Shown here: piece by piece, positions 12,101 to 59,930 of the stretch
Layout of the letters: each line of letters opens with the position of its first letter
How positions within the stretch are numbered: the first letter of the stretch is position 1
DNA from: a virus
Lineage: Duplodnaviria > Heunggongvirae > Uroviricota > Caudoviricetes
Virus record (IMG/VR): IMGVR_UViG_641736216_000007
DNA length: 64,000 nt
Reading direction: 5' to 3' (one strand)
Made by a program: the position numbers and the translations under genes
The notes under the pieces: model-generated
Database searches by the model: none
The model's input: only the letters and a program-made list of their open reading frames with translations
Told to the model about the DNA's origin: nothing

Positions 12101-15100
12101 CAGCATTTTTAACAGGAGTCCAATTAACTTCTAAATTGTTATTCAACTCTGTTATGTCAATTTTCATATCTCCAATTACATGGACTTTTACAGTTTCCTC
12201 AGATTCTAATCCTTTACTATCTACAACTGTATATTTTACTTCATATACTCCTTTTTTAGTATTGTCAATTTCGCCTTCAATATTTATTTTATCAGTTAAG
12301 TTTCCATCTTCAAAATCGTAGGCAGACACACCCTCTAATTTATCAAAATTTTCTCCTAAATTAATAACTCTATTCCTACCTGGGACAGTTATTATTGGTT
12401 TATTGTTATAAGTATCATCTGAGAGTTTTATGTGTTTAGTTTCAGATTTGTTCCCTTTATTATCAATAGCATAAATATGAAGATAAGTATTATCTGTTAC
12501 ATTTTTAAACTCGAATTTACCATCTGTATTATTAACTTCTCCATTAATTTCTGTATTTGGATTTTCATCAACCTCATAATAGTATCCTTTAAACCCAGAA
12601 ATTGCAGTTGTCTTAACTATATTAGAATATGCAGTTTGGTAATCATCTTCATCATAACTTTCAACCTTATACTCATAATCCGAACCAATATCTTCAGTGA
12701 AAAACTCCATTTTAGCAGTTCTTTCTTTATTTAATATTAGAGAATATTCCATTTTCGGTGGAACTTTATCTTCTGCTAAATAACCACTAAGTATATTTTC
12801 TCTTAGATTGTCTTTAACTATCTCAAAAGAATCTTTTTCTTTTCTTAAAACTTTATAGTAATCAGCATTTTTATAATCATTCCAATTTAAAGTTATATTA
12901 TCATCTTTATTTTCTAAATTTAAAACAATATCTTGCTTAGATACCATATTGTCTATCTTTACACTGTCTTCATATCTATATACTCCATCAGAAGAACCAT
13001 TATCCATGTTTTCAAATTCTACTACAAATCCCTCTATGTCAGTCCAGACTGGATCTGGACTATTAACAGTGTCATTCCAAAGTCCACCTGAATTTTTAAT
13101 TGAAGACATATAATCTTCAGTCCCTCCTAAATTATTTGGTTCCCCAACACACCAATTTGTAAATTTGACTGGTTCACCTGTAACCCATTTCCATTTACCT
13201 TCTTCTTCCTCATCTGTTGCTCCGAGCCAAACTGTTTTCGTAGTTAAACAGTTAAATAAATCTAATTCATATTTAGACTTGATGGTAGCTAAATGCCCTT
13301 TTAAACCTCTGTATTCCATTTTTTCGGCTCTCTCTTTTGCATTTTTCCAAGTTATCCTTTTATCTTCTATAAATTGGTAGTAGTTCCCATTTTGAGGATT
13401 ATATATTATATCATCAACACTATTATTTTGCAGTCTTACATTAAATATAAAGCTTGTGCTATTGTCATGTTCAATTTTAATGGATTTTATTAGTTCTTCA
13501 GCTTCTTCAGTTGTATAATTTTCATTTAATATTATCTGTCGTTCTTTAGAATGTTTTTCTATCCCCTTATCTAAATATTTAATAGTCATACTGCTATTAA
13601 ATCCTTCACTTATATATAGCTTCATTCCATTTATTAACTCATCACTATTATTTGTAATAGATGCATTAGGAAATGTAGCAATAAATCTTTTTTTATCAGG
13701 TTCGCCTAATTTAATGTTCAAATAATCCAAATTTTCTTTTACGATTATTTCTTTTATAATTTTACTTTCTTGATTTTTACTATCTTTAACACTATACTCT
13801 ATACTCCATTTACCAAGAATATTTGTATCAAATTCATCAACTATTTTATTATCAGGATTTTTTATTACTACATTAATATCTTTAGTTAAATCTCCATCAT
13901 AATCATCTATGGCATTAATACCTTTCATAATATCAAACACTTTACCTTGTTCTATAGAAGTATTTCCTCCAACATTTAAAACTGGAGGTAAATCTTCAAA
14001 TATTCCAGCAATTGGAAGTGTAACCACTTCACTTTTATTTCCTGCTTTATCTACTGATACTATATGCACATATAACTTACTTGCTAATTCTTTAGCAGAT
14101 ATAAAACCATCTGTACTATTTACAACATCACCTAAAGAGATTGATGGTACAGAGCTATTACTTACTTCATAGCTAAACCCTTTAAATCCAGATTTTATTT
14201 CCACCTTTTCTTTATTTGATATATGTGTTATATCTCCATATTCAGAAATTCCTTCAATATAGTATTCATAAACAGAAGAAATATCTTCTGAATTAAAATT
14301 AATCCCTTGCTTTATTCCAGAGTTAAATAATTCATATGTTGGTGCTGTAGGTTTATTTATGTCTTTTTTATCTTCTTCAAAGTAAGTATCTTTTTGTTCT
14401 TTAATTATTTTAAAATCTTCTTCTTTTTCTTTTAATAAAATCTTATAATGGTCTATATCTTTGATATTATTCCAATCAAGCATAACCTTATTTTTATTCT
14501 TTTCAAAGAATGCATTTAAAACAATATCTTGTTTACATTCAATTGGTTTAATAGTTGCAGTATCTTCATACTTAAATTTATCTAAAGTATTAGGATAAGG
14601 CAGTTTTTCATCTAAGCCAAATTCTACAATATATCCATCTATTTTTCCCCCACTTGCTATATTAAAATCATCATCCCATAATCTCTGACTATCATTATAA
14701 GAAATAATATAATGTTGTTGTCCTAAATAATTATCTGGTCTACCAGGATACCAATTTGTGTAAATAAATGGTTCTTTTGTAACCCATTCCCATTTACCTT
14801 CTTCTTTTTCATCTGTACCCCCAAGCCATATACAATTAGCAGTTAAATTGTGTATTACTTCTTGTTCATAGGCTGAAGTTATTGTTGCTAAATATCCTCG
14901 AACACCTAAAAGTTCTTGTTTTTCTGCATCTACTTTTGCATCTTTCCAAGTTATACCTGGAGCAGAAATGAATTTATAATAATGATTATTTTCATAATTA
15001 TAAACTATATCATCAACTTCGTTTTTTCCTAATTTTACTGTAAATTTAAATTCTGTATTATTTTTATGTTCAATTTTTATAGATTTTACTAACTCTTCTG

Positions 15101-18234: not shown

Positions 18235-19242
18235 TTATAAAAATTGTTCTAAAAAATCAAGATATATTTTCCTATGGACATTAATACCTTTCTCTAAATC
18301 AAAACCTCCATTTTCATTGTATATTCTATAAAGGAATTCCTCCTTAGTAATATTGTTTTGGCATCCTATAGTAAACAACCATCTTCCATCTATAAAAATA
18401 GCTATTACCTTTCTATTCCTAAAAGCTTCTTTTAAAATATTGTATTTAAACATATCTCTGTTTTCTATTAATTCAATACAAAAACCATCCATTTTTATAG
18501 CTTCTAAACAAATCTCATAAGTTTGGTTTTTTATATAAATAATAAGACTTGGATCATTTTTAATAGCCTTTTTAGCTCTTTCCTCTATTGTTCTTCTTAA
18601 TATATCCTTATCCTTTATTGCATACATTTTAGATAATCCTAAAAGTATTTCCTCTGTATATTTATCAATAAAAATAATGACATCTAAATTTTGCTTTATA
18701 GCAATAAGATATAATTTATTTTTATTATGGGCAGATAAATTATCATCTATATAAGCTATATTCCATGATTCTTGTTCAACTGCCCCTAAACACAAATTAT
18801 AAATTTGTTTATCTGTAAGCTTTAATAAATCCCAGTTCATATATTTTAAAACTTCTCCAAAGCTTGTTATTGCTTCAAGACAAATAAGATAGATTTGTTC
18901 ATTTGAAAGATTATCTACTATTTGAACCCAGTGTATATTCTTAAATGCCCAACAGTTACTCCTTACTGCCTCTATACATATCTCTACTATATCTTCTGTT
19001 TTTAAATTAAGCTTATTCCAATTTATATACTCTATGCTATCTCCATTTCTCCTTACAGCAGTTAAACACATTTGTTTAATTTCTTCTTCTAATAGAGCCA
19101 CGCTATCCCATCTTACGTATTCTAAAGCTCTTCCATTTTCCTTTAAAGCTTCAATACATACCCTATAATCTTGGTCCCTTATACACCTCAAACATACTCC
19201 ATTTTTCATTGATGTTTTTAAATCTATTTGATACTGGCTCAT
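18235..19242 (-). CDS. DUF4116-type repeat protein (335 aa)
   Basis: Repeats such as ICLEAIKMDGFCIELI, CIEALKENGRALEYVRWD and CLTAVRRNGDSIEYINWNKLNL. Confidence 0.55.
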   Translation of the reverse strand: MSQYQIDLKTSMKNGVCLRCIRDQDYRVCIEALKENGRALEYVRWDSVALLEEEIKQMCLTAVRRNGDSIEYINWNKLNLKTEDIVEICIEAVRSNCWAFKNIHWVQIVDNLSNEQIYLICLEAITSFGEVLKYMNWDLLKLTDKQIYNLCLGAVEQESWNIAYIDDNLSAHNKNKLYLIAIKQNLDVIIFIDKYTEEILLGLSKMYAIKDKDILRRTIEERAKKAIKNDPSLIIYIKNQTYEICLEAIKMDGFCIELIENRDMFKYNILKEAFRNRKVIAIFIDGRWLFTIGCQNNITKEEFLYRIYNENGGFDLEKGINVHRKIYLDFLEQFL

Positions 19243-21063: not shown

Positions 21064-22602
21064 TTATATCATACTAATTTCTCTCTTATCTTTTTTTAAA
21101 GGTTCTGTAATTAATCCTAATTCTAATAATAACTTTGAATAAGATCCATATTTCTTAACTAAATATTTTATATGAACACCGCTGTCTTTAATATTTTGAA
21201 TAGTTGGGATTTTACCCAAAGATTGCGTCATTTCTAAAATTGCTCTCTTACTTTCTTCCAACTCTATATCTGTATATCTATTTTTTAAAGGCTCTGTAAT
21301 TAATCCTAATTCTAATAATAACTTTGAATAAGATCCATATATATTAATCAAGGAATTTATATGAACTCCATTATCTTTAAGGTTTTGAATAGTTGGGATT
21401 TTACCTAAAGATTGTGTCATTTCTAAAATTATTTTTTTACTTTCTTTTAGTTCTGTATTTGTATACTTACTTCGTTTTGGTAATTTAAGTATTGCTTTTA
21501 TTTCTCTCCAACTACCAAATTTCCTAAAAAATGTAGCAGTTTTTATTCCATATTCCTTAAGTTCACGTATAATTGGGGTTTTATCAAGTATCTGGTAAAC
21601 TTCCATTATTTCTTTCATAGTTTTATCTTTAAATTTTTTATCTTTTTCATCTTTAATAACTTTAGCTTTCTCTACAATAGCTTTCAAGTTAAGAACATCT
21701 ATCATGTTTTCATAACTTCCATAATAAGAAAATAAAATTTTAACTGGAATCTTATAAAAAACAAGACGAGCCATACTTGGTACTTTAATTTTATTTTTTG
21801 TTAATTTTATTATTTCATTATTAAATACTTTTATATCATATTCTTCTATTTTTAATTTTTTATATGCTTCTTTAAGGCTTCCATAAGTCTTTTTTAGTAG
21901 ATTAACATCTATTCCTCTTTTTTTCATAAGGAGCTCAGATGGTACCCTCTTGTATTTATCTTCATTTTTAATGTCTAATATTTCTTTTTTTATTTTTTCT
22001 ATCTTCTCTTCATCAAACTTAGAGACAATTGAATCTAAATTCAATTCTTTTTTTATTTTTTCCCAACTACCCATTACTCTCATTAACTTATTTATTTTTA
22101 TTCCATTTTCCAATAGTTGCTGGTAAGTTGGAATACATTTCTTGTTATTTGTCAAATCTAATATTTTTTCTATTATTCCCTCTATCTCTTTTATATTTGA
22201 TACTTTTTCCAAAAGAATTGCATTTTTATCCTTATTTTTTTCAAGGAAAGGATTTTCTATTACTATATCTGTTTTTAACTTATTCTTTACAGTACTCCAT
22301 TTACCATATTTTTTTATTAAAGGTTTTATATTTATATTATTTTCTTTAAGTTCTTCTCTATTAGGTATTTTACCTAATCTATCTCTTAATTCTTCAACTT
22401 CTTTTAATATGTCTTCTGCATTATTTGTTTTATCTATAAAGCCAAGATTTTCTAAAACTTTATTCCAACTTCCATAAATCTGAAATAATTGTTTTACATC
22501 AGAATTATTTAAATCACTGAAGCTTGGCACATAACCATTTTCACTTATAAAATCATTTATTATATTTTTTGTATATTCTACATATCCACTTGGTACAAAC
22601 AT
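21064..22602 (-). CDS. Homing-endonuclease-associated-repeat (HNH_repeat-like) protein (512 aa)
   Basis: About 8 repeats of the (Y/F)GSW(n)..L..LGL type (YGSWNKVLENLGF, MGSWEKIKKELNL, FGSWREIKAILKL, YGSYSKLLLELGLITEP). Contains a ~190-bp tandem DNA duplication at 21093-21472. Confidence 0.55.
   Translation of the reverse strand: MFVPSGYVEYTKNIINDFISENGYVPSFSDLNNSDVKQLFQIYGSWNKVLENLGFIDKTNNAEDILKEVEELRDRLGKIPNREELKENNINIKPLIKKYGKWSTVKNKLKTDIVIENPFLEKNKDKNAILLEKVSNIKEIEGIIEKILDLTNNKKCIPTYQQLLENGIKINKLMRVMGSWEKIKKELNLDSIVSKFDEEKIEKIKKEILDIKNEDKYKRVPSELLMKKRGIDVNLLKKTYGSLKEAYKKLKIEEYDIKVFNNEIIKLTKNKIKVPSMARLVFYKIPVKILFSYYGSYENMIDVLNLKAIVEKAKVIKDEKDKKFKDKTMKEIMEVYQILDKTPIIRELKEYGIKTATFFRKFGSWREIKAILKLPKRSKYTNTELKESKKIILEMTQSLGKIPTIQNLKDNGVHINSLINIYGSYSKLLLELGLITEPLKNRYTDIELEESKRAILEMTQSLGKIPTIQNIKDSGVHIKYLVKKYGSYSKLLLELGLITEPLKKDKREISMI
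21093..21472. repeat. Two tandem ~190-bp copies inside 21064..22602
   Basis: Unit 21093-21282 is about 90% identical to 21283-21472. It encodes the duplicated block ...SKRAILEMTQSLGKIPTIQN(L/I)KD(N/S)GVHI...YGSYSKLLLELGLITEPLK. Confidence 0.7.
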
Positions 22603-34621: not shown

Positions 34622-35420
34622 TTATTTTTTGTTCTGCTTTACTGCTAATAGACAAAGTTCAGGAGTTTGATTTTTTACATATTTAAGAGCATATGGATTT
34701 TCTTTAACTGCTTCAAGACAAATTTTGTCCATCTGTCCATTTGTAAGTTTATCTAAATTTACAAATCTAAGTGCTAATCCATTTTGTCTTACTGCTATTT
34801 GACAAAGTTCATATATTTCCTCTTTAGTTAGATTAAATTCGCTCCAATTTACATACTCAAGAGCTAAACCATCCTGTTTTACTGCTTTAAGACACATCTT
34901 ATAACTTTGTTTTTCTATATACTTAAGTGCCAATCCATTTTGCATTACTGCTTCTATACATATTTCTTCAGTCTGTTCCTCCACAAATTCTAAAGCATGT
35001 CCATTTTGTTTTACTGCTTCAATACAAATCTCTGGTGTTTGTTCTTTTACATACCCTAAAGCCCATGGATTACTTCTAACTGCCAATAAACACATTTCTT
35101 CTGTTTGTTTATCTATATAAGATAAGACCATCTTCTCTTACTATGTCTAAATACAAATCATTAATATCTGCTTTAATCAAATTAAGCTCATTCCATTTTA
35201 TATGATGTAATGCAGAGTATCCATTTTGTCTTACTGCCTCTTTATAAATATTATAAAATTCCTCTTTAGTTAACGGAAGTATCCTCCATTTAACTAATTG
35301 TATTGCTTTACCATTATTTTTAATTGCCTCTAAGCATATCTCATAATCCTGTTCATTTATATATATTAAATTATATCCATTTTCTTTTACTTTTTCTAAA
35401 GCCAGTTCTCTCATAATCAT
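34622..35420 (-). pseudogene. DUF4116-type repeat gene split by a frameshift in a TATATA tract near 35118 (ORFs 34622..35131 and 35109..35420)
   Basis: The upstream ORF ends ...REDGLILYR* and the overlapping ORF starts MVLSYIDKQTEEMCLLAV. Adding TA (or removing 1 nt) restores the continuous repeat ...DGLILYIDKQTEEMC. Confidence 0.5.
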
Positions 35421-35471
35421 TTTTATCTCCCTTTTCAGTTCATAATATTCATTAGTAACCTTATTCTCTTG

Positions 35472-36095
35472 CTAAGAAATAAATTCTGATGCATACTTGT
35501 TTTGCTTTAATGCTTCAATACATATTTCCTTAGTTTGTTTTTTTACATATCTAAGTGCTAAACCATTCTGTTTAACTGCTTCTAAACAAATCTCTTCTGT
35601 TTGAGTATGAACGAACTCTAAAGCTAACCCATTTTGTCTTACTGCTTCTATACAAGTCCTCTTTATTTGGCCTCCTGTATGTTTAAGAGCTAATCCATTT
35701 TGTTTTACTGCTTCTATACAAATATTTGTTACTTTCTTTTTTACATATACAATTAAATTTCCATCTCTTCTTACTGCTTCTAAGCAAATTCTATCTGTTT
35801 GGATAGGAGCAAACTGGAATGAGTCTTCAAATTCCTGTATTGCTTTTAAAGTTATATTTTCTACTTGTTCTTTTGATAATTTATCTTTTAATAAACCAAA
35901 AGGTATATGTCTAAGATTTAACCCTTTATCCATAACTGCTTCTAAGCAAAGTTCTTCTATCTCCCACTCTGATAATTTATCTTTTAAATCTTTCCAATTT
36001 ACATATTTTATAGAAGAGCTATCATTTATAATTGCTTCTCTACAAACTTCATACGATTGTTCTTCTATCTCTTTTAAATAACTACCTGTTTCCAT
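35472..36095 (-). CDS. DUF4116-type repeat protein. Start probably at the ATG at 36095; the track ORF extends to a GTG at 36116.
   Basis: Repeats such as CIEAVKQNGLALKH, CIEAVRQNGLALEFV and CLEAVKQNGLALRYVKKQTKEICIEA. Preceded by repeat element copy B. Confidence 0.55.
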   Translation of the reverse strand: METGSYLKEIEEQSYEVCREAIINDSSSIKYVNWKDLKDKLSEWEIEELCLEAVMDKGLNLRHIPFGLLKDKLSKEQVENITLKAIQEFEDSFQFAPIQTDRICLEAVRRDGNLIVYVKKKVTNICIEAVKQNGLALKHTGGQIKRTCIEAVRQNGLALEFVHTQTEEICLEAVKQNGLALRYVKKQTKEICIEALKQNKYASEFIS

Positions 36096-36132
36096 AAAAA
36101 ATGCAAAAGGGGACACGCTACTTCAGTAGTGT

Positions 36133-36428
36133 GAGGAATTTACCCCTCTTTCTGTTAGGCAAGAGTCTTTAACTCATATCTGTAACCATCACCTTTTTGT
36201 ATTAGTTTTAAATATCTATGATTAACAAATTGCAATCCTTGATAAAATTATTAAGGATTAATATCATATTACACTGTTTGTACCCATAAACTGGAGAAGC
36301 ATTTGTAGGTGTTGTAACCTTAATAATGTAGTTTAAAACTGAATCTGGTCAATACGACTTGGAGATAACTTCAAGCCTACCTCTTTAGAGGTGGGTTATT
36401 GACTTAGACATCCTCCCTTATCCTAATT
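36133..36428 (-). repeat. Copy B of the ~290-bp repeated element, inverted relative to copy A
   Basis: Reverse complement aligns with 8531..8818 at about 88-90% identity, with small indels. Ends 37 nt upstream of the start of 35472..36095. Confidence 0.55.
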
Positions 36429-40148: not shown

Positions 40149-40667
40149 TTATTTTTTTATATATCCTAAACTATATGCTCGATTTGAAGCATCTCTTTGA
40201 TTGACATTAAAATATTTAGAAACTTTATCTATATTAATTACACCATTTTCTTCGATAAGCTCAAATTCACTTTTAGGCATTAATAATGCAAGTGCAAACT
40301 CTTTAACTTGTTCTTCTTCTTGCAAATTTTTACTTTTATAAAATTCATTTATTTTCTGAGAATTCCATATATCATCATCTATATTATATCTCATGTGCAA
40401 AAATAAGTGTCCTAATGCTTTAGCTATATGCATATTGGATATATGATTGGATTGACCATAAGGAATTACTATTTCAAATTCATAATGATAATTCTTTAAT
40501 TTTCTAATATAAGAGTCTGAAAATTTACTTAAAGAATTATCTTTTTTAATTATTCCTCCCATTTTATCAACAACATTATTCATATCTTTTATTGGAATTT
40601 CAATCATATAAATGTCTATTATATCCTTTGTTAGTTCATTAATTAAATTAATATTCTTTTTATTCAT
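40149..40667 (-). CDS. ImmA/IrrE-family (DUF955) metallopeptidase-like protein with a degenerate HEXXH
   Basis: MHIAKALGHLFLH aligns with the ImmA AHELGHlllH motif with H->K and E->A substitutions. ...FALALLMPKSEF matches the family LLMP motif. Terminator hairpin at 40114-40144. Confidence 0.45.
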   Translation of the reverse strand: MNKKNINLINELTKDIIDIYMIEIPIKDMNNVVDKMGGIIKKDNSLSKFSDSYIRKLKNYHYEFEIVIPYGQSNHISNMHIAKALGHLFLHMRYNIDDDIWNSQKINEFYKSKNLQEEEQVKEFALALLMPKSEFELIEENGVINIDKVSKYFNVNQRDASNRAYSLGYIKK

Positions 40668-40805
40668 AATAATCCCCCTAAATATTTATAAATTTATATT
40701 TATTTTTATAAATAAATATAAATATTATTATTTTTTATAAAATAATATATTATTTTATGATTTTTATTAATATAAATATTTTTTATAAGTATTTTATATT
40801 TTTTA

Positions 40806-42476
40806 CTATTTATTTTCCAAATATTTTAAAAAATTTAAATACTCATCTTTTCGAGAACTTAAGATATAATATTTAAAAATATTTTCATCATTTACCAACA
40901 TCTTATAAAAATCTTCTACCTTAATTATTTCATCACACTCAAATACTAAATACCAAATATGGTCAAGTTTAAAGGCATTTATTTCTTCATGTCCATTACT
41001 ATTTTTAAATATCTTCTTTTCTATCTTATTTTTCAACTTAAGTTTTTTCAAATTTTCTTTTTTGTTTAATTCATTTAACATATCATCTTTAATAAAACTT
41101 AAGTTGACTAAGTCTCCTTTTATTGCTTCTATACATACTTCTACTGTTTGCTCTTTTACGTATTGAAAAGCTCTTTTGTCATTTTTAGTAGCTTCAAGAC
41201 AAATCTCCTCCGTTTGTTCTTTTACATACATTAAATACCATCCTTTTTGTTTTACTGCTTCTAAACATATTTCAGGTGTCTGTTTTTTTACATCTCTAAT
41301 CGCAAATCCATCTTGTCTTACTGCTATTAAACATATCTCTTCGGTTTGATTTTCCACATATTGTAAAATCATACCATTTTTTTTAACTGCTTCTTTACAT
41401 ATATCTTCTGTTTGCTTATTTACATATTTAAGAGCTTTACCATCTTGTCTTACTGCTATTAAACATATATTATGAGTTTGTTCTTTAACATACTTTAAAG
41501 CCAAACCGTTTTGTTTTACTGCTTCTATACAGATTTCTTCTGTCTGCTCCTTTACATACTCAAGAGCTAAACCGTTTTGTTTTACTGCTTCTATACAGAT
41601 TTCTTCTGTCTGCTCCTTTACATACTCAAGAGCTAAACCGTTTTGTTTTACTGCTTCTATACAGATTTCTTCTGTCTGCTTCTTTACATACTCAAGAGCT
41701 AAACCATTTTGTTTTACTGCTTCAAGACATATTTCTTCCGTCTGTTCTTTTACATACTCAAGAGCCAAACCATTTTGTTTTACTGCTAATAAACAAAGTT
41801 CTTCTGTTTGCTCTTTTATATATATTAAAGCTAAGCCATCATTTTTTACTGTTTCTTTATAAATTTCTTCTGTTTTGTTTTTTATAAAAAGCAAAGCTGA
41901 AATATCTTGTTTAATAGCTTCTATATAAATCTTATTTTTTTGCTTTTCTGTAATAAAAAATGAATCAAATTTTGCATATTGTAAAGCTAATCCATTTTGT
42001 CTTACTGCTATTAGGCATAAATTATAGTCCTGTTTTTTTATATCTTCTAAAATATATCCATTTTGTTTGACTGCTTCAGTGAATATATTATATATCTGTT
42101 CATCTGATAAATTTAATTTATTAAAATCTACAGCTTTTAGAGAAAATGCATTTTGTCTTACTGCTTCAAGACAAATTTCTTCTATTTCTTTAGCTGACAA
42201 ATTAAGTTCATTAAACTTTATATACTCAAGTGCATACCCATGTTTTTTAACTGCCTCTATACATATCTGTTTAATATCTATATCCGATAAGGCATATTTT
42301 TTAAAATCCACATATTTCAATTCTAAACCATTGTTCTTTACAGCACTTAAATATAAATTAAATACTTGTTCTTTTGTTAAATCTAATTTATTAACATCTA
42401 CAATATTTAAACTTTCTTTTTGTTCTGTAATTCTTACTAAATAGTTTTCGAATTTTTTACTATTCATATAATTCAC
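40806..42476 (-). CDS. DUF4116-type repeat protein (556 aa). N-terminal ~36-aa repeats, then 22-aa repeats and a distinct C-terminal domain.
   Basis: About 20 repeats, including four near-identical QTEEIC(L/I)EAVKQNGLALEYVKE units. SD AGAGGGAG and ATG at 42476. Confidence 0.65.
   Translation of the reverse strand: MNYMNSKKFENYLVRITEQKESLNIVDVNKLDLTKEQVFNLYLSAVKNNGLELKYVDFKKYALSDIDIKQICIEAVKKHGYALEYIKFNELNLSAKEIEEICLEAVRQNAFSLKAVDFNKLNLSDEQIYNIFTEAVKQNGYILEDIKKQDYNLCLIAVRQNGLALQYAKFDSFFITEKQKNKIYIEAIKQDISALLFIKNKTEEIYKETVKNDGLALIYIKEQTEELCLLAVKQNGLALEYVKEQTEEICLEAVKQNGLALEYVKKQTEEICIEAVKQNGLALEYVKEQTEEICIEAVKQNGLALEYVKEQTEEICIEAVKQNGLALKYVKEQTHNICLIAVRQDGKALKYVNKQTEDICKEAVKKNGMILQYVENQTEEICLIAVRQDGFAIRDVKKQTPEICLEAVKQKGWYLMYVKEQTEEICLEATKNDKRAFQYVKEQTVEVCIEAIKGDLVNLSFIKDDMLNELNKKENLKKLKLKNKIEKKIFKNSNGHEEINAFKLDHIWYLVFECDEIIKVEDFYKMLVNDENIFKYYILSSRKDEYLNFLKYLENK
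41518..41781. repeat. Four tandem 66-bp repeats (22-aa unit). Copies 1-2 are identical and copy 3 differs by 1 nt.
   Basis: Unit ACTGCTTCTATACAGATTTCTTCTGTCTGCTCCTTTACATACTCAAGAGCTAAACCGTTTTGTTTT at 41518, 41584, 41650 and 41716. Confidence 0.85.
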
Positions 42477-42488
42477 TCCCTCTAAATG

Positions 42489-42749
42489 TTATTTACCTGA
42501 TAGTATATTTAATTTCTTTATTTCTTCTTCTGTAAAGTCAACCTCTTCCCATTTTATACAATCTATAGCATCTTTATCTTGCTCAATAGCTTTTAAACAT
42601 ACTAAATATGTCTGCTTGTCTACAAATTGTAAAGCTTTTCCATAAATGCTAACAGCATCCAAACACATTTCTTCTGTTTGATCTTCTGAACTTGCTAATA
42701 ATCTTATGACCCAAGCATTATTCTTACTCATATTTCTACCTCTCTTCAT
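42489..42749 (-). CDS. Small DUF4116-type protein (86 aa)
   Basis: QTEEMCLDAVSIYGKALQFVDKQTYLVCLKAIEQ. A separate gene lying 12 nt upstream of 40806..42476. Confidence 0.45.
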   Translation of the reverse strand: MKRGRNMSKNNAWVIRLLASSEDQTEEMCLDAVSIYGKALQFVDKQTYLVCLKAIEQDKDAIDCIKWEEVDFTEEEIKKLNILSGK

Positions 42750-43635: not shown

Positions 43636-44070
43636 CTATATTATTCTTTTTGAATCAGCATTAATATCACAACCTACTTTTTCCCAGTTAAAATTTTTTA
43701 AAACTTCTTTGTCCTGTTTAACAGCTTCAAAACATAAATTCAACTTTTCTTCATCTGAAAAATTAAATTGTTCCCATTCTATATAAAATATAGAATGGCT
43801 GTTTTGTTTTACTGCTTCTAAACATAATTCATATACTTGTTTTTTTGTTAAATTTTTAAAATCTATAAATTTTAAAACCAATCCACTTTGTCTTACTCCT
43901 TCAAGATACAACATATATATCTGCTCTTTAGACAAATTAATATCATTCCATTTTATATCCTGTAAAGTAAATCCATTTTGTTTAACTGCCACCAAACATA
44001 TTTCATATGTTTGGTGGTCTACATGTTTTAAATAACTACTGAATCTACTTACTTTTTCAAAATCATTCAT
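43636..44070 (-). CDS. DUF4116-type repeat protein (144 aa)
   Basis: CLVAVKQNGFTLQDIKWNDINLSKEQ, CLEAVKQNSHSIFYIEWEQFNFSDEEKL. Terminator at 43597-43621. Confidence 0.5.
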   Translation of the reverse strand: MNDFEKVSRFSSYLKHVDHQTYEICLVAVKQNGFTLQDIKWNDINLSKEQIYMLYLEGVRQSGLVLKFIDFKNLTKKQVYELCLEAVKQNSHSIFYIEWEQFNFSDEEKLNLCFEAVKQDKEVLKNFNWEKVGCDINADSKRII

Positions 44071-54314: not shown

Positions 54315-56918
54315 TTAAACTTTATTTTCATTATTATTAGTTTCAGTATCATCATTTTTATTATTGTTATTTTCTTGGCTGTCCTCAGTGTTGTTACTTT
54401 CATTATCTGATTCATTGTTTAATTCATTATTTAAATCTTCATTTTTAATTGATGTATCTTTTTCTACATTCTCTTGGACATTATTTTTAATCTGATTCTT
54501 AATTTTTTCTTGATATTCTCTCTCTTTTTTCTCTTTTAAATATTCTTCTTCTCTTTTTTCCCTATTTAATTGTTCCTTAATTTCATTAAAATTATCATTT
54601 AAAAATCTATATTCTTCTATAAGCTCATCATATATAGATTTTCTTTTTACATTATTTATACTATTTTTTACTTTTAAAAGAATTTTATCTATTTCTTTTA
54701 CTTGTTTTAAATCAATTAATTTATATTCTCTTAAACTTTCTATATCATTTTTAGCTTTTATTTCTCTAATAGTCTCTTCTTCTTCACTTAAACCAAATAT
54801 AATTCTGTATTCTAATTCTTTTAATCTCTCTTTTTGAACTTCAGCTTCATTATTCTTTCTATTTTTTTCAAGATCTAATCTCTCTTTTTTAATTGCGAAT
54901 TCTTGAGGTCCTAATGTCTTTAACTTACCATTTTTACTATAAACCTGATCTGGCTTTTTAAAATCTACATCTTCTTTACCTTCATGAAGTCCACTCATAA
55001 ATTTATTCCATATATATTTAACTGAATTTGACTCTAATGAAGATTGGTATGAAGGAATGTCATCTCCTATCCATACAGACATGGTATAATAAGGAGTATA
55101 TCCACAAAACCAAGCATCTTTATTATCATTTGTTGTTCCTGTTTTACCAGCTTGGTATTTATAATTATTAAGCTTAGCTTTATGTGAAGTTCCATGTTCT
55201 TTTTCAATACTACCTTTCAAAACGTCTGTCATTAAATAAGATGCGCCTGAATCATATACCCTTTTTTTATTTTTATTATTTTTGTAGATAATTTCTCCAG
55301 TTGAAATTTTTTTAATTTCTTTTACATTTGTAGGTTCTATAAATTCTCCATTCCTTGCAATTGTTGAATATGCACTTGCCATTTCAGTTGTCGTCGCTCC
55401 TCTTGTTAACCCTCCTAAAGCTATAGTAGGCGTTCTGTCTGTTGAAGTTAGATATTTAAAATTCATTTTAGCTAAATATTTGAGAGATTTCTCAACTCCA
55501 TTTAGTTTAGTTAACCTAAATGGTATAGTATTTGTAGAAATCTCAGTAGCATATCTCAAGGTTATACGTCCTTTATATCCATTATACCAGTTAGAAGGAC
55601 CTTTATTAATTGGTCTATCTTCAAACTCGTCATCTGGAGAATATCCTTTTTCAAATGCAGGTAAATACGAAATCAAAGGCTTCATAGTTGATCCAGGTTG
55701 TCTTGCTCCTATAGAAGCTCTATTAAATGTGTTTGATTTGCCTTCTTGAGTCCTACCTCCAACTATTGCTATTACTTCTCCAGTGTTGTTATCAATAACA
55801 GTAGAAGCAGATTGTTTCATATACAAACTATTAGATTTATTTATTTTTTTATATTTAATCATTTCCTTATTTATAATAGACTGAAGCTTATTCTGTAAAT
55901 CGAAATTAATACAAGTATTAATTTTATATCCACCATTAAGTAGTTCTTCTCTGCATTTTTTATATTCTGAAGAGTATAGATTTGAGTATTTTTTTCTTTG
56001 CTCTTCATTGTCAAACATATATCTGAATTGAAAACCATTATTTTTCATAATTTCTTCAGTAGATTTTTGTATTGCATACTCAACAGCATAATCATTAATA
56101 TTATTATCATAATATTTTTTTTTGACATTTAACTCAAGTATTTCTTTTTTTGCATTTAATTGTTCTTTTTCTGTTATAAATTTAGATTCATACATTTTAT
56201 CAATTATATTATTTCTTCGTTTTATAGCATTTTCTTTATTTAACATTGGATCATATAAAGAAGGATTATTTGGAATCCCAGCTAATAAAGCTATTTGAGA
56301 TACATTTAAATCTTTTGTATTTTTTCCAAAATAATACATTGATGCTGTTTCTACCGAATAACACCCATGGCCAAAATTAATATTATTAACATAAAATTCT
56401 AATATATCACTTTTTGAAAATTTTTTTTCTATTTCTTGAGCTATTACTGCTTCCTCAAGTTTCCTCCATATATTTCTATCCATAGATAAGAATATGTTTT
56501 TTGCTAATTGCTGGGTTATTGTAGAACCTCCTTGAAGGCTACCACCTTTTAATATAACCACTCCTGCCCTAATTAAAGCCTTAAAATCAATGCCGTTATG
56601 TTCATAAAACCGTTTATCCTCTACTGCAATGAAAGCTTTAAAAACATATGGGTTTATATCTTTATATTTCTGATAATCATATTCTCTAACCTTAAACTCT
56701 TTCAGTAATTTACCATTATTATCATATATCTTTGTTGTTTCCCTGTTATTAAAAGAATTCCTATCCATACTTTCAGTTTTACTATAAGCTCTTTCTATAT
56801 AGTTACTAATGTCATTTTTTAAATAAAGGTATATGAAAATGGAAGCTATAAGAGATATAATTAAAAAAATAAAAATAGATATAATAATAATTTTTATTTT
56901 TTTATTTTTTTTACTCAA
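54315..56918 (-). CDS. Class A penicillin-binding protein (bifunctional transglycosylase/transpeptidase, PBP1A-like) with a long low-complexity C-terminal tail
   Basis: GT51 motifs (EDKRFYEHNGIDF; GGSTITQQLAKN). Transpeptidase motifs STMK (SxxK), SNT and KTGTT. N-terminal TM anchor. Confidence 0.9.
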   Translation of the reverse strand: MSKKNKKIKIIIISIFIFLIISLIASIFIYLYLKNDISNYIERAYSKTESMDRNSFNNRETTKIYDNNGKLLKEFKVREYDYQKYKDINPYVFKAFIAVEDKRFYEHNGIDFKALIRAGVVILKGGSLQGGSTITQQLAKNIFLSMDRNIWRKLEEAVIAQEIEKKFSKSDILEFYVNNINFGHGCYSVETASMYYFGKNTKDLNVSQIALLAGIPNNPSLYDPMLNKENAIKRRNNIIDKMYESKFITEKEQLNAKKEILELNVKKKYYDNNINDYAVEYAIQKSTEEIMKNNGFQFRYMFDNEEQRKKYSNLYSSEYKKCREELLNGGYKINTCINFDLQNKLQSIINKEMIKYKKINKSNSLYMKQSASTVIDNNTGEVIAIVGGRTQEGKSNTFNRASIGARQPGSTMKPLISYLPAFEKGYSPDDEFEDRPINKGPSNWYNGYKGRITLRYATEISTNTIPFRLTKLNGVEKSLKYLAKMNFKYLTSTDRTPTIALGGLTRGATTTEMASAYSTIARNGEFIEPTNVKEIKKISTGEIIYKNNKNKKRVYDSGASYLMTDVLKGSIEKEHGTSHKAKLNNYKYQAGKTGTTNDNKDAWFCGYTPYYTMSVWIGDDIPSYQSSLESNSVKYIWNKFMSGLHEGKEDVDFKKPDQVYSKNGKLKTLGPQEFAIKKERLDLEKNRKNNEAEVQKERLKELEYRIIFGLSEEEETIREIKAKNDIESLREYKLIDLKQVKEIDKILLKVKNSINNVKRKSIYDELIEEYRFLNDNFNEIKEQLNREKREEEYLKEKKEREYQEKIKNQIKNNVQENVEKDTSIKNEDLNNELNNESDNESNNTEDSQENNNNKNDDTETNNNENKV

Positions 56919-57335: not shown

Positions 57336-59930
57336 TTAGAAATTAATCAGATTGTTAATTATAGAGTTTACTACTATTTTATCTATTTTAGCGTGGCAAA
57401 TAGGGCATGTTTCAACTTCTAACAAAAGTTTTTTATATATTTCTATTTTATTTATTAGATATTCCTTTTTTTGCTCAATATTATGTTTCATTTCTTTTCC
57501 TTGATTGAATATTATATTTAATTCTTCTTTTTGTTTTTCAATTATTTTTATCTTCTCTTTTTGTTCTTTTAAATTACTTAACTTAAGCTCAATATCCTCA
57601 ATGTCATTTAATTTGTATCTAATTGAATTAAATTTATCTATTCTATTTTTTATATTTTTAAACTCTTCCTCTAATATATATATATCCTTTAACTTTTTAG
57701 ATTTTTCTTTTATTGTCTCATTTATACTTTTTAAATCTTCAATTTTATTAATTTGTTTTTCTATATCCAATAAAACATTATATTGTTTTTTTAAATATTT
57801 ATACTTTTTGTATATATTTGTTTTTTCACTTTCAATCTTTTTGTATTCATATAATTTTTTTTCTTCTAATCCTATTTTCTCATAAGAGTCTTTTAGGTTG
57901 GACATTAATAAAGGTGCTTTATCGATTTCTTTTAATTCCTCTACTTTTCCTCTTAATTCTGTTCCTAATTTTAACACTTTAGTAAGTTCAGCAGATTTTT
58001 CTTCAAGAATTTTTATTTTAAAGAACTTATTAGTTAACAGTTCAAACATATCTGTAATTTTTTCTTTATTTTCAGTTAGCTTTAACACTTTCTTTTCTAA
58101 TTCACTTATACTTCTTTCTTTTTCTATTAACTCAAGAGAAAATTTAGATAACTTCTCTATTAACTCTTTTTTTAATTTAATCTCATTTAAAATACTCTCT
58201 ACCTTATAAATATTTTCTTCTAATTTAAAAACATAATTATAGCTTTCTTTTCTTTCTTCTAATTCACTTACTTCTTTTTCAATCACATTTTTTTTCATAT
58301 TTATTTTTTTTATATTTGAAGTCATTTCTTTTACTACTACATCTCCATATTGCGTTCCATATAAACTCCCTACCAATTTTGCTTTATCTGTAGAAGACAT
58401 ATTTTTACCAACGAAGAACCAAGGATCACCTTGATTAATAAAATTTACATCAACACTACTTTTCTCAGATAATTTGACTTTGTTAAATCCTAAAATCTCT
58501 TGAACTGTTGTTATTGCTTTTGTATTAAAATATTCTATACAACCTTTGTTTGGATCAAATATTTCATATCCATTTTTCCCTTTTCTTTTATTCCCATTTT
58601 TATCTTCATTGTTTTCTACTATCCTACTAATTACAAACCCATTACTTAAATATAATGTTATTTTAAAAAAGTCCTCTCCACTTAAAATATGATTTCTTGG
58701 ATTTTTAATATAACAATCATACACTTCTCTTATTGCTCTAAGTACCGCTGATTTACCTTGACCACTTACTCCAGATACAACGTTTAACCCTTCCGAAAAT
58801 TCAAACACAGCATGTTTAAAACAAGCAAAATTAATAATTTCTAATTCAGTTATGGTGTATTTCCCTTTCGAAGAAAAAGGGACTTTCATAAGCTTTATAT
58901 TTTCTACAATATTATTAACAGCTTGATCTCTTATGCTATCATCTATATTTTTATTTTTTGCAATGTTTTTTACTATATCAACTATATCTATCCCTTTGGC
59001 TAACTCTGCTTTATTCATTAAGCTTTTTACATCTTCTATTTTTTCTAATTTTTTTTCTTTTTTAGCTATTTTCTCTCTTGATAAAACTTCACTTCCCTTT
59101 TTAGCACAGGATAAAAAAATTGGTTTTAAATTTATTCCATTTTTATCTACTTCTATTAAAATAACTTTTGGCATACGATTAATCTCTTTAAGCTCCGCTG
59201 ATAATCGAAATGGAGAACCTGGATTAATAAATTTCTTCCCATTAATATCAATTTCATCGTAGCCAGTATGATCATGTCCATTTATTGTCAAATCTGCTTT
59301 AGTGTGAGCTATTTGAGAAACAACCGTATGTTTAAATTTCTTACCATAACTTTTAGGCATTAAGTATCCATGTACAAGATGGATGTGAAAATCTCCCAAC
59401 TTTTTATTAACGATATAAGCAGATTTATCTTCTCCATCTATGTTATGAGTATAAGGAGCTCCGGTTATTGCTAAAGAAAAACCTTCTTTATCCTTAAAAA
59501 TAACTGGATTTTCTTTAGTTGCAATTGTTATAGCTCCACAACTAATTAAAACATTTAAAGATGTCTCTTCTAAAGAAGAGATTTCATTCCCTATTAATTC
59601 ATGGTTTCCTATTGTTCCAATAACAGGAATAGAACTTTTTAGATCTTGTTCTATTTCTCTAAAAGTTGTCTCCCCTGTTTTCATTTGCAGTATTTTATTA
59701 TTTAATTGAGAGAACTTAAAGTCTTTAGCTAAAGAGGCAAGTTCCTGTTCTGATAATCTATCTGAATTAAGGAAATCTCCCATTTCCAGAAAAGCATCTA
59801 TTTTATATTTATTTGCTATTTCCATTATTTCTTTCGTCTTTTTCTGTCTTGTATCTTTAAAATCATCGATTCTACTCCATGGAGTTTTACTTGAATAATG
59901 CCAATCTCCCAAAACTAAAAATCTTAACAT
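57336..59930 (-). CDS. Fusion of an Mre11/SbcD-type metallophosphoesterase nuclease with a Rad50/SbcC-like N-terminal ATPase lobe, coiled coil and C-terminal CxxC hook. No Rad50 C-terminal half.
   Basis: All five phosphoesterase motifs (GDWH, GDFLN, GNHE, HLVHGY, GHDH). P-loop GVSGQGKSA. Q-loop-like INQGD. About 330 aa of coiled coil. Ends CPICHAKIDK. Confidence 0.6.
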   Translation of the reverse strand: MLRFLVLGDWHYSSKTPWSRIDDFKDTRQKKTKEIMEIANKYKIDAFLEMGDFLNSDRLSEQELASLAKDFKFSQLNNKILQMKTGETTFREIEQDLKSSIPVIGTIGNHELIGNEISSLEETSLNVLISCGAITIATKENPVIFKDKEGFSLAITGAPYTHNIDGEDKSAYIVNKKLGDFHIHLVHGYLMPKSYGKKFKHTVVSQIAHTKADLTINGHDHTGYDEIDINGKKFINPGSPFRLSAELKEINRMPKVILIEVDKNGINLKPIFLSCAKKGSEVLSREKIAKKEKKLEKIEDVKSLMNKAELAKGIDIVDIVKNIAKNKNIDDSIRDQAVNNIVENIKLMKVPFSSKGKYTITELEIINFACFKHAVFEFSEGLNVVSGVSGQGKSAVLRAIREVYDCYIKNPRNHILSGEDFFKITLYLSNGFVISRIVENNEDKNGNKRKGKNGYEIFDPNKGCIEYFNTKAITTVQEILGFNKVKLSEKSSVDVNFINQGDPWFFVGKNMSSTDKAKLVGSLYGTQYGDVVVKEMTSNIKKINMKKNVIEKEVSELEERKESYNYVFKLEENIYKVESILNEIKLKKELIEKLSKFSLELIEKERSISELEKKVLKLTENKEKITDMFELLTNKFFKIKILEEKSAELTKVLKLGTELRGKVEELKEIDKAPLLMSNLKDSYEKIGLEEKKLYEYKKIESEKTNIYKKYKYLKKQYNVLLDIEKQINKIEDLKSINETIKEKSKKLKDIYILEEEFKNIKNRIDKFNSIRYKLNDIEDIELKLSNLKEQKEKIKIIEKQKEELNIIFNQGKEMKHNIEQKKEYLINKIEIYKKLLLEVETCPICHAKIDKIVVNSIINNLINF

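What the first reader, a model, noticed from the sequence alone, without database searches (positions are those of the whole stretch)
41518..41781. Perfect 66-bp tandem repeats inside a DUF4116 gene: a hotspot for copy-number variation
Copies at 41518 and 41584 are 100% identical over 66 bp, a third differs by 1 nt, and a fourth is diverged. Identity of this kind in ~23% GC DNA implies very recent expansion by recombination or slippage. The gene can therefore gain or lose 22-aa modules in frame.
Basis: seen in the sequence. Interest (0 to 1): 0.5.

Follow-up and report, generated by a model that had tools for sequence, protein, structure and literature searches.

The report
Copy-variable 66-bp repeats in DUF4116 gene
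A helical-repeat protein gene on a 300-kb Clostridioides difficile plasmid carries freshly duplicated 66-bp units whose number and content differ between isolates; this is real but is an ordinary way for repeat-protein genes to evolve.

Summary
Units 41518-41583 and 41584-41649 are identical; the third differs by 2 nt, not 1; the fourth is 58/66. The perfect period-66 tract runs 41503-41680.

The repeats lie in a 553-aa DUF4116 gene (40806-42467, minus strand) on the ~300-kb, ~24% GC C. difficile plasmid NC_017177.1. Each 66-bp unit encodes one 22-aa helix-helix rung of a confidently predicted alpha-solenoid.

Other isolates carry the gene with one, two or three copies of the perfect unit (531, 553 and 575 aa), with no other difference in 8-20 kb of flank. 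Further alleles have different unit numbers and contents and cannot be assembly collapses. One carries a ~100-bp patch matching a paralogous DUF4116 gene 125 kb away, which indicates ectopic gene conversion. A divergent lineage differs by two units between assemblies, one of them a closed plasmid.

The one-copy allele, found only in fragmented short-read assemblies, could still be a collapse.

About 29% of 97 unrelated DUF4116 loci also contain perfect unit duplicates, so this appears to be typical of the family. The protein's function is unknown. It has no signal peptide and no defence-system match. It is a new member of a known kind, of modest interest.

The parts
40806..42467 (-). DUF4116 repeat-protein gene, 553 aa from the ATG (556 aa from an upstream GTG at 42476). 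It equals WP_009899561.1 / CDBI1_RS20410 of C. difficile BI1 plasmid NC_017177.1.
   Evidence: ORF. Pfam PF13475, 276 bits, 11 stretches. 100% DNA identity to NC_017177.1, and the RefSeq annotation of the 1662-bp CDS. The exact 553-aa product was found on 18 contigs.
41518..41781 (-). The four homogenised 66-bp units of the finding. In gene order they are #2 (41716-41781), #3 (41650-41715), #4 (41584-41649) and #4 (41518-41583). In frame they encode AVKQNGLALEYVK(E/K)QTEEIC(L/I)E.
   Evidence: Identity matrix: 66/66, 64/66, 58/66. In-frame units and counts of synonymous and non-synonymous differences.
41503..41680 (-). Perfect period-66 tract of 178 bp (a 112-nt exact self-match at offset 66). 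This is the substrate for misalignment. One unit of it is missing in the 531-aa allele and one more is present in the 575-aa allele.
41412..41852 (-). Population-variable core of the array. It holds nearly all substitutions seen between C. difficile alleles: allele 2 has 23 SNPs here against 3 in the other ~7.1 kb compared. It includes the 84-bp patch 41544-41627 that is replaced in alleles 3 and 4.
41127..41984 (-). Full run of thirteen in-frame 22-aa (66-bp) units, residues 162-447. Each is modelled as a 10-residue helix, a 6-residue helix and a 5-residue loop, stacked into an alpha-solenoid.
   Evidence: Unit table. TRF period 66 and 132. AlphaFold2 model with pLDDT 93-99 over residues ~150-450, and its DSSP pattern.
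42083..42409 (-). N-terminal variant units with 90-bp (30-aa) spacing: DUF4116-like units carrying an 8-aa insertion. No near-identical copies.
   Evidence: the repeat finder family D5, four copies spaced 90 nt, 63-79% identity. Helix pattern at lower pLDDT.
40806..41126 (-). C-terminal non-repeat tail of about 106 aa with no family match and low model confidence. It is missing in the divergent lineage, whose proteins end ...QYVKLSL.
42489..42731 (-). Small DUF4116 ORF (80 aa from the ATG used in public annotations), 21 bp upstream of the gene on the same strand.
43636..44070 (-). A 144-aa DUF4116 paralogue in the same-strand gene cluster.
34622..36116 (-). Three further DUF4116 paralogues (34622-35131, 35109-35420, 35472-36116). 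They are potential conversion partners.
   Evidence: Unit-HMM scan of the six-frame ORFs. RefSeq annotation.

Best explanation
The repeats are the youngest units of a coding tandem array in a DUF4116 gene. The gene lies on a ~300-kb, low-GC extrachromosomal element of Clostridioides difficile.

Each 66-bp unit encodes one complete 22-residue helix-helix rung of an alpha-solenoid, so adding or removing a unit lengthens or shortens the solenoid by one rung without breaking the frame or the fold.

The central units were recently duplicated or homogenised, leaving a 178-bp perfectly periodic tract. Misalignment of this tract now generates alleles with one, two or three copies of the same unit. The most likely route (inferred) is slipped-strand mispairing or unequal sister-strand exchange during replication.

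The same core also exchanges ~100-bp patches with paralogous DUF4116 genes elsewhere on the plasmid, by ectopic gene conversion through homologous recombination. The array core is therefore a recombination hotspot in an otherwise almost invariant plasmid.

The protein is probably a cytoplasmic protein-binding scaffold. This is inferred from the absence of a signal peptide, the solenoid fold, and the fusion of DUF4116 arrays to F-box, RING and enzyme domains in other organisms. Its partner and role are unknown.

Shown: the repeats, the fold prediction, the allele series and the paralogue-matching patch. Inferred: the molecular mechanism of misalignment, the direction of the conversion, and the function.
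For: 1. Repeat anatomy.

2. Recency rather than constraint: 22/22 identical codons in the perfect pair against a 63% background.

3. Source: 100% identical to NC_017177.1, a C. difficile BI1 plasmid of 300,869 bp.

4. Allele series from independent assemblies:
- 553 aa, units 2-3-4-4-5: 18 contigs read that carry exactly this product, including the complete BI1 plasmid record.
- 531 aa, units 2-3-4-5: GCA_019426845.1 and GCA_900013725.1.
- 575 aa, units 2-3-4-4-4-5: GCA_900165485.1, on a 301-kb contig.
- Flanks are identical to the window: 0 SNPs in 20.5 kb for the 531-aa allele and 0 in 8.2 kb for the 575-aa allele.

5. Alleles that cannot be assembly collapses, because their longest internal exact repeat is 49 nt or less:
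- Allele 2 (GCA_002301955.1) has one unit fewer and 23 SNPs within 441 bp, against about 4 in the remaining 20 kb.
- Alleles 3 and 4 (GCA_033237665.1, GCA_018708585.1) have two diverged units where the window has #4-#4.
- The divergent lineage has 397 aa in GCA_030164385.1 and 441 aa in the closed plasmid CP061362.1, a difference of exactly two units.

6. Ectopic conversion. The allele 3/4 patch matches the paralogue CDBI1_RS19815 (NC_017177.1 166884-167936) at 94% over 116 nt, with only 2 mismatches across the ~100-nt core. It matches the orthologous site at 82%, and the flanks revert to the window sequence.

7. Donor pool: 8 DUF4116 ORFs in the window and at least 40 matching pieces on the plasmid.

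8. Fold: AlphaFold2 pLDDT 93-99 over the array, with each unit a 10-residue helix, a 6-residue helix and a loop.

9. Scaffold inference: homologues carry F-box, RING, AAA, YcaO and ADP-ribosyl-glycohydrolase domains next to DUF4116 (Pfam column).

10. Family-wide pattern: 28 of 97 unrelated DUF4116 loci contain a perfect 66-nt duplicate at offset 66, 132 or 198.
Against: - The one-copy allele differs from the window only by the 66 bp. It comes from more fragmented assemblies, where a 112-nt exact repeat can collapse.
- The sequencing technology behind the three-copy assembly could not be checked.
- Short-read contigs break inside the array in at least two assemblies (GCA_027752925.1: L008 and L036; GCA_018615795.1: L009), so assemblers do struggle here.
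- No within-strain (colony-level) variation data exist, so no rate can be given.
- The direction of the paralogue exchange is not resolved; outgroups are uninformative.
- No donor was found for allele 2's novel unit #15. The best match was 90.8%, at the orthologous site.
- Function is inferred only. There is no hit in PADLOC or PDB, and no literature on DUF4116 function.
- The family-wide figure of 29% comes from loci retrieved with patterns taken from this protein, and is biased towards long, consensus-like arrays.
Confidence: 0.8

Rival explanations
1. Assembly artefact: the copy-number differences, or the perfect repeat itself, are products of mis-assembly of a repetitive gene, and all plasmids really carry the same array.
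For: - Contigs end inside the array in GCA_027752925.1 and GCA_018615795.1.
- The 531-aa allele is exactly the window minus one perfect unit, with no linked SNP in 20.5 kb. It sits on 45- and 118-kb contigs.
- The exact repeat is 112 nt, longer than common short-read k-mers.
Against: - The two-copy state is reproduced on 18 contigs, including the complete BI1 plasmid record.
- The three-copy allele is an expansion, which collapse cannot produce.
- Alleles 2, 3 and 4, and the L015/CP061362.1 pair, differ in unit number or content and have internal repeats of 49 nt or less, so they assemble unambiguously. CP061362.1 is a closed circular record.
Confidence: 0.08
2. Homogenisation without expansion. 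On this reading the perfect #4-#4 pair did not arise by adding a unit. A pre-existing diverged unit, as still seen in alleles 3 and 4, was overwritten by its neighbour through intragenic gene conversion. The paralogue-like patch would then be ancestral, not imported.
For: - Alleles 3 and 4 have the same total unit number as the window.
- They differ from it by a single contiguous 84-bp patch (41544-41627) holding 25 of their 28 differences.
- The patch keeps the alternating 'LIAVR...' unit type seen further down the array.
Against: - The patch is 94% identical to a paralogue 125 kb away, with 2 mismatches in the ~100-nt core. This fits a recent import into alleles 3 and 4 at least as well.
- The 1/2/3-copy series on identical backgrounds shows that net gain and loss also occur.
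- The two readings are not mutually exclusive.
Confidence: 0.3
3. The identity is maintained by selection on the protein or on an RNA or DNA element, not by recent duplication, and copy number is functionally fixed.
For: The four units encode nearly the same peptide, and the consensus is conserved across the family.
Against: - Units with the same amino acids elsewhere in the array share only 63% of codons.
- Unit 228, which differs from the pair by one residue, differs by 8 nt, 6 of them synonymous.
- Copy number is not fixed in the population.
Confidence: 0.03
4. Programmed diversification. On this reading the gene is an expression site that is deliberately varied by cassette-like conversion from the many DUF4116 paralogues. 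This would tune a binding surface, for example against host or phage factors, in the manner of antigenic-variation loci.
For: - A paralogue-derived patch in alleles 3 and 4.
- Dozens of DUF4116 units on the plasmid.
- Variation concentrated in the array core while the rest of 20 kb is nearly invariant.
Against: - Only one clear ectopic event was seen.
- No dedicated recombinase or signal sequences were identified.
- The paralogues are intact ORFs, not silent cassettes.
- No signal peptide is visible in the N-terminus.
- Passive homology-driven recombination explains everything observed.
Confidence: 0.1

Closest known systems
In-frame coding VNTRs of Gram-positive proteins (e.g. the group B Streptococcus alpha C/Rib proteins, the Staphylococcus aureus Spa X-region and Sdr/Clf repeats). 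Recalled from my own knowledge, not tested here.
   Same: Tandem units whose length is a multiple of three. Near-identical DNA copies. Isolates differ by whole units while the reading frame is kept. Change is driven by slippage or unequal recombination. Useful as a typing marker.
   Different: Those proteins are secreted and wall-anchored, and are under immune selection. This protein has no visible signal peptide or anchor and is an alpha-solenoid. Its unit is a complete structural rung rather than a spacer or Ig-like domain.
TAL effector repeat arrays of Xanthomonas (102-bp, 34-aa helical-hairpin units). Own knowledge.
   Same: A helix-turn-helix unit stacked into a solenoid. Nearly identical DNA repeats. 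Repeat number and order are reshuffled by intra- and inter-gene recombination among paralogues carried on plasmids or mobile DNA.
   Different: There is no sequence or fold match (Foldseek TM about 0.1 to any PDB entry). The unit is 22 aa rather than 34 aa. There is no evidence of DNA binding or secretion.
Ankyrin-repeat genes of Wolbachia and its WO prophage, which vary in repeat number between strains. Own knowledge.
   Same: A helical repeat scaffold encoded in many paralogues on a mobile element, with repeat-number polymorphism between close strains. Eukaryote-like repeat family.
   Different: A different repeat family (ANK, 33 aa) and a different host biology. Here DUF4116 also occurs widely in free-living bacteria and in metagenomes.
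Other DUF4116 (PF13475) arrays
   Same: The Pfam match is far above threshold. An alpha-solenoid was predicted for the family in PMC8078820 and here. Perfect 66-nt unit duplicates are present in 28 of 97 unrelated loci.
   Different: No paper found mentions such variation.

Membership tests
DUF4116 (Pfam PF13475) repeat proteins | Match to the family HMM above the curated gathering score | tested here: met
   276.1 bits against a cut-off of 24.9, 11 stretches, E = 5e-84.
DUF4116 (Pfam PF13475) repeat proteins | Alpha-solenoid built from short helical units | tested here: met
   AlphaFold2 pLDDT 93-99 over residues ~150-450. Regular 10-residue helix, 6-residue helix and loop every 22 residues. 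Agrees with the trRosetta solenoid for the family in PMC8078820. This is a prediction, not an experiment.
In-frame coding VNTR (variable-number tandem repeat) | Unit length divisible by three, with two or more near-identical tandem copies | tested here: met
   66 bp = 22 codons. Identities of 66/66 and 64/66, and a 178-bp perfect tract.
In-frame coding VNTR (variable-number tandem repeat) | Length polymorphism between isolates in whole-unit steps, with the ORF kept open | tested here: met
   Alleles of 531, 553 and 575 aa that differ only by copies of unit #4. Also 397 aa against 441 aa in the divergent lineage. All are open reading frames. Caveat: the 531-aa allele might be an assembly collapse.
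In-frame coding VNTR (variable-number tandem repeat) | Variation arises within a strain at a measurable rate | not testable with these tools
   This needs colony-level PCR or long reads. The only indirect evidence is zero flanking SNPs between copy-number alleles.
Phase-variable contingency locus (on/off switching by repeats) | Repeat change shifts the reading frame or the promoter spacing, switching expression | tested here: not met
   The unit is 66 bp and internal to the ORF. Every allele remains in frame.
Cassette-based antigenic variation (expression site plus silent donors) | Surface-exposed product | tested here: not met
   The N-terminus MNSKKFENYLVRITEQKESLN has no hydrophobic signal segment (read directly from the sequence). 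No anchor or wall-binding domain in Pfam. No dedicated signal-peptide predictor was run.
Cassette-based antigenic variation (expression site plus silent donors) | Segmental conversion from paralogous donor copies | tested here: inconclusive
   One ~100-nt tract matches the paralogue CDBI1_RS19815. The direction is unknown, the donors are intact genes, and only one event was seen.
Diversity-generating retroelement target | Adenine-specific substitutions between a template and a variable repeat, with a nearby reverse transcriptase | tested here: not met
   Substitutions between alleles involve all base types (G>A, A>T, C>G, T>C and others). None of the 17 window proteins scanned against Pfam matched a reverse transcriptase. 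The whole plasmid was not scanned.
Known anti-phage defence systems (PADLOC-DB) | Match of the protein to a defence-system model | tested here: not met
   No hit for the DUF4116 protein. Only the neighbouring M78 peptidase gives weak RmrA/CapP-like hits, E = 4e-8 and weaker.

The most novel reading that the evidence does not exclude
The many DUF4116 genes of the C. difficile 300-kb element may form a recombination network. In it, unit duplication, unit loss and paralogue-to-paralogue conversion would continually re-tailor the binding surfaces of cytoplasmic alpha-solenoids. This would be a solenoid counterpart of cassette variation, possibly serving plasmid-host or plasmid-phage conflict. The high frequency of perfect unit duplicates across unrelated DUF4116 arrays would then reflect selection for evolvability, not merely neutral concerted evolution.
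Probability: 0.12. Interest if true: 0.6.

Novelty: new member of a known kind. Interest (0 to 1): 0.3.

Why it matters
Practical value:
- The array is the only difference found in 20 kb between otherwise identical copies of a poorly characterised 300-kb C. difficile element. It could therefore serve as a fine-scale typing marker for that element.
- It is also a known trap for short-read assembly: contigs break or may collapse here.

Biological value:
- It documents, with natural alleles, that DUF4116 solenoids evolve by whole-rung gain and loss and by exchange with paralogues.
- Freshly duplicated units are common across the family. This is a useful starting point for a widespread domain of unknown function, and it gives natural length variants for testing what the solenoid binds.

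It does not reveal a new mechanism.

Tried and rejected
- Exact look-up of the 556-aa GTG-start product found nothing. The public gene call uses the ATG (553 aa), which was found.
- The search for homologous proteins returned only generic DUF4116 proteins, at most 65% identity over part of the query and no orthologue. The listing of cluster members did not hold the sequence. Length variants therefore had to be recovered through neighbouring genes.
- The phage collection gave no DNA match. PHROGs hits were only DUF4116-type families of unknown function.
- Genome and metagenome scans gave no orthologue, only unrelated DUF4116 arrays. These were reused for the family-wide survey.
- The Foldseek PDB search gave only generic ARM/HEAT/designed-repeat resemblance at TM about 0.1. 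The PDB sequence search gave nothing.
- No defence-system membership was found in PADLOC.
- No donor was found for allele 2's novel unit #15 in the window, the fetched loci or PLSDB.
- The literature has three listed papers that mention DUF4116, none on function or variation. The name 'pCDBI1' in the two papers read that describe or list it refers to the ~45-kb plasmid FN668942, not to this 300-kb record. Nothing was found on the assembly FUQT01.
- Considered and rejected: an on/off phase-variation locus (the changes are in frame), a DGR target (substitutions are not A-specific), and identity maintained by selection (codon test).
Full report
**1. The observation**

Reading the sequence and comparing 66-nt units directly confirms that 41518-41583 and 41584-41649 are identical. 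Positions 41503-41614 equal 41569-41680, giving a 178-bp perfectly periodic tract.

The third unit (41650-41715) differs by two nucleotides (41681 and 41706), not one. The fourth (41716-41781) is 58/66.

Tandem Repeats Finder places these units in a 9.5-copy array of period 66 (41245-41873, 78% matches) and also reports a period of 132. The remaining units are only 37-55/66 identical to each other, so the four units are clear outliers.

**2. The gene**

The repeats lie on the minus strand in an ORF at 40806-42476. Public annotation starts it at the ATG at 42467, giving 553 aa. Pfam gives DUF4116 (PF13475) at 276 bits with 11 stretches.

In frame, residues 162-447 form thirteen 22-residue units. 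An AlphaFold2 model built on 61 sequences has pLDDT 93-99 over residues ~150-450. Every unit shows a 10-residue helix, a 6-residue helix and a 5-residue loop, which makes an alpha-solenoid with a 22-residue rung.

This agrees with the solenoid predicted for the family in PMC8078820. No solved structure is related by sequence, and by fold there is only generic solenoid resemblance at TM about 0.1.

The N-terminal ~140 residues carry looser 30-residue variants of the unit. The C-terminal ~106 residues are non-repetitive, match no family and are poorly modelled.

**3. Recency, not constraint**

Across all unit pairs outside the homogenised block, positions with the same amino acid use the same codon in 505 of 803 cases (63%). 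The perfect pair shares 22 of 22 codons.

Unit 228 encodes the same peptide as the pair apart from one residue. It differs from the pair by 8 nt, six of them synonymous.

**4. Source and neighbourhood**

The window is 100% identical to NC_017177.1, the 300,869-bp 'unnamed' plasmid of C. difficile BI1. It is 81% identical to pESW1602 of a pond-water Clostridioides sp.. It has no match among phage records.

In the two papers read that describe or list 'pCDBI1', the name refers to the ~45-kb plasmid FN668942. I found nothing specific on the 300-kb element.

The gene sits in a same-strand cluster containing:
- two small DUF4116 ORFs
- an ATLF-like metalloprotease
- an ImmA/IrrE (M78) peptidase
- a small membrane protein
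- a 1069-aa protein with no family
- an SPFH protein

The window holds eight DUF4116 ORFs, and the plasmid gives at least 40 matching pieces. No PADLOC model matches the protein.

**5. The population test**

The exact neighbours of the gene occur on dozens of public C. difficile contigs. Extracting the orthologous gene from them gave six C. difficile alleles and two forms in a divergent lineage. Each distinct 66-nt unit was given a number:

| Allele | Unit map | Protein length |
|---|---|---|
| Window (allele 0) | 2-3-4-4-5-6 | 553 aa |
| Allele 1 | 2-3-4-5-6 | 531 aa |
| Allele 5 | 2-3-4-4-4-5-6 | 575 aa |
| Allele 2 | 13-14-15-16-17 | 531 aa |
| Alleles 3 and 4 | 18/22-14-19-20-5-6 | 553 aa |

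The exact window allele is carried by 18 contigs read, including the complete BI1 plasmid record.

Alleles 1 and 5 have no other difference from the window. That holds over 20.5 kb for allele 1 and over 8.2 kb of flank for allele 5.

Allele 2 has one unit fewer and 23 substitutions within 41412-41852. It has only about four in the other 20 kb.

Alleles 3 and 4 carry 25 differences packed into 41544-41627.

In the divergent lineage, GCA_030164385.1 encodes 397 aa and the closed plasmid CP061362.1 encodes 441 aa. The difference is exactly two units, a 132-bp duplication. Both lack the C-terminal tail, and in CP061362.1 a TnpB gene lies next to the truncated gene.

Between the same conserved anchor units, the array therefore has 5, 6, 6, 7, 7, 7 or 8 units in different plasmids.

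**6. Could this be assembly error?**

Partly. The window's exact internal repeat is 112 nt and that of allele 5 is 178 nt. Short-read contigs end inside the array in at least two assemblies.

Allele 1 is exactly what a collapse would produce, and it comes from more fragmented assemblies, so I cannot exclude an artefact for it.

Alleles 2, 3 and 4, and both divergent-lineage forms, have internal repeats of 49 nt or less and should assemble unambiguously. Allele 5 is an expansion. The two-copy state is reproduced many times. The conclusion that unit number and content vary does not rest on allele 1.

**7. Exchange with paralogues**

The patch that distinguishes alleles 3 and 4 matches another DUF4116 gene of the BI1 plasmid, CDBI1_RS19815 at 166884-167936. 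That gene lies 125 kb away.

The match is 94% over 116 nt, against 82% for the orthologous site. In a three-way alignment the paralogue match has two mismatches over about 100 nt and ends on both sides where the allele returns to the window sequence.

This is the signature of an ectopic gene-conversion tract. Its direction is unresolved. Either alleles 3 and 4 imported it, or the window lineage overwrote it with a neighbouring unit, which would also create the perfect pair. Part of allele 2's novel unit resembles another unit of the same paralogue, but no close donor was found.

**8. Mechanism**

Shown:
- a perfectly periodic tract
- whole-unit gain and loss on identical backgrounds
- a paralogue-matching tract
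- variation confined to the array core

Inferred from general knowledge of repeat instability in bacteria (the work of Lovett and colleagues on tandem-repeat deletion, recalled and not checked here):
- Adjacent direct repeats of about 100 nt rearrange mainly by slipped misalignment or sister-strand exchange at the replication fork, largely without RecA.
- A tract copied from 125 kb away needs homologous recombination.

Because one unit is one complete structural rung, such events change solenoid length without unfolding it. This explains why they are tolerated.

**9. Function**

Function is unknown. I favour a cytoplasmic protein-binding scaffold, for three reasons:
- no signal peptide is visible
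- the fold is a solenoid
- DUF4116 arrays in other organisms are fused to F-box, RING, AAA, YcaO and ADP-ribosyl-glycohydrolase domains (Pfam column)

PHROGs contains DUF4116-type families, all of unknown function.

**10. How unusual is it?**

Among 97 unrelated DUF4116 loci retrieved from species-representative genomes and from metagenomes, 28 contain a perfect 66-nt duplicate at offset 66, 132 or 198, and 56 reach at least 63/66.

The sample is biased towards long, consensus-like arrays. Even so, freshly copied units are evidently common in this family. The finding is a well-documented example of a family-wide habit, not an oddity.

**11. Verdict**

In kind, this is an in-frame coding VNTR with paralogue conversion in a helical-repeat gene. 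That is comparable in behaviour to surface-protein VNTRs, TAL effector arrays or Wolbachia ankyrin genes, but in a different repeat family and in a protein that is probably cytoplasmic.

Novelty: a new member of a known kind. Interest: modest (0.3). Its value lies in typing a neglected C. difficile megaplasmid, in warning about assemblies, and in providing natural length variants of a domain of unknown function.

Noticed in passing
window 36096-36403 (HEARO hit at 36227-36403, minus strand): Rfam HEARO RNA (RF02033, the IscB-type omega RNA) scores 85.2 bits against a gathering score of 83, with no IscB/HNH ORF beside it. It lies inside a 308-bp segment that is present in the window but precisely absent in GCA_018708585.1 (L018); the shorter intergenic gap in the gene table suggests the same for GCA_033237665.1 (L012), which was not aligned. 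One indel boundary coincides with the 5' end of the RNA model. This may be a miniature, ORF-less mobile element.
   Followed up: partly
whole window; NC_017177.1 and CP061362.1: The window belongs to a ~300-kb, ~24% GC extrachromosomal element of C. difficile (about 5 points below the ~29% I recall for the chromosome). It recurs as ~300-kb contigs in many isolates and has an 81%-identical relative in a pond-water Clostridioides sp. I found no paper describing it; in the two papers read that describe or list 'pCDBI1', the name refers to the 45-kb plasmid.
   Followed up: partly
window 1711-2139, 18235-19242, 34622-36116, 42489-42731, 43636-44070; NC_017177.1 166884-168786: There is a large DUF4116 paralogue family: 8 ORFs with 57 unit matches in this 64-kb window and at least 40 matching pieces on the plasmid. 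C. difficile chromosomes also carry DUF4116 genes that are 46-59% identical.
   Followed up: partly
L038-L134 (unrelated DUF4116 loci from genomes and metagenomes): 28 of 97 loci contain a perfect 66-nt duplicate at offset 66, 132 or 198, with exact runs up to 138 nt. Recent unit duplication seems to be a family-wide property of DUF4116 arrays across phyla. The sample is biased by the retrieval patterns.
   Followed up: partly
window 40679-40805: An AT-rich, low-complexity tandem-repeat tract (periods about 20-30) lies between the DUF4116 gene and the M78 peptidase gene. Short-read contigs of three assemblies end here (L010, L019, L025, L026), and BI1 differs from the window by a 1-bp indel at 40736.
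   Followed up: no
L020 2652-3797 (CP061362.1 121214-122359): In the pond-water relative, an IS200/IS605 TnpB gene sits immediately downstream of the DUF4116 gene. That gene is truncated (ending ...QYVKLSL) and has no CDS listed in PLSDB's incomplete gene table. GCA_030164385.1 has the same truncation.
   Followed up: no
window 9138-17147 (minus strand): A 2669-aa ORF carries seven bacterial-surface Ig-like domains and two C-type lectin domains. It looks like a giant adhesin encoded on the plasmid.
   Followed up: no
window 54315-56918 and 57336-59930 (minus strand): The plasmid encodes a class A penicillin-binding protein (transglycosylase plus transpeptidase). It also encodes an 864-aa fusion of a calcineurin-like phosphoesterase with an SMC/AAA_23 domain, SbcCD-like in a single polypeptide.
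   Followed up: no
window 21064-22602 (minus strand); repeat at 21087-21446: An HNH_repeat (PF18780) protein gene contains a 189-bp tandem duplication at 87% identity. This is another coding repeat, though not a perfect one.
   Followed up: no
window 40149-40667 (minus strand): The ImmA/IrrE (M78) peptidase downstream of the DUF4116 gene gives weak PADLOC hits to RmrA and CapP models (E = 4e-8 to 2e-3). None of the flanking ORFs scanned against Pfam gave an HTH match.
   Followed up: no
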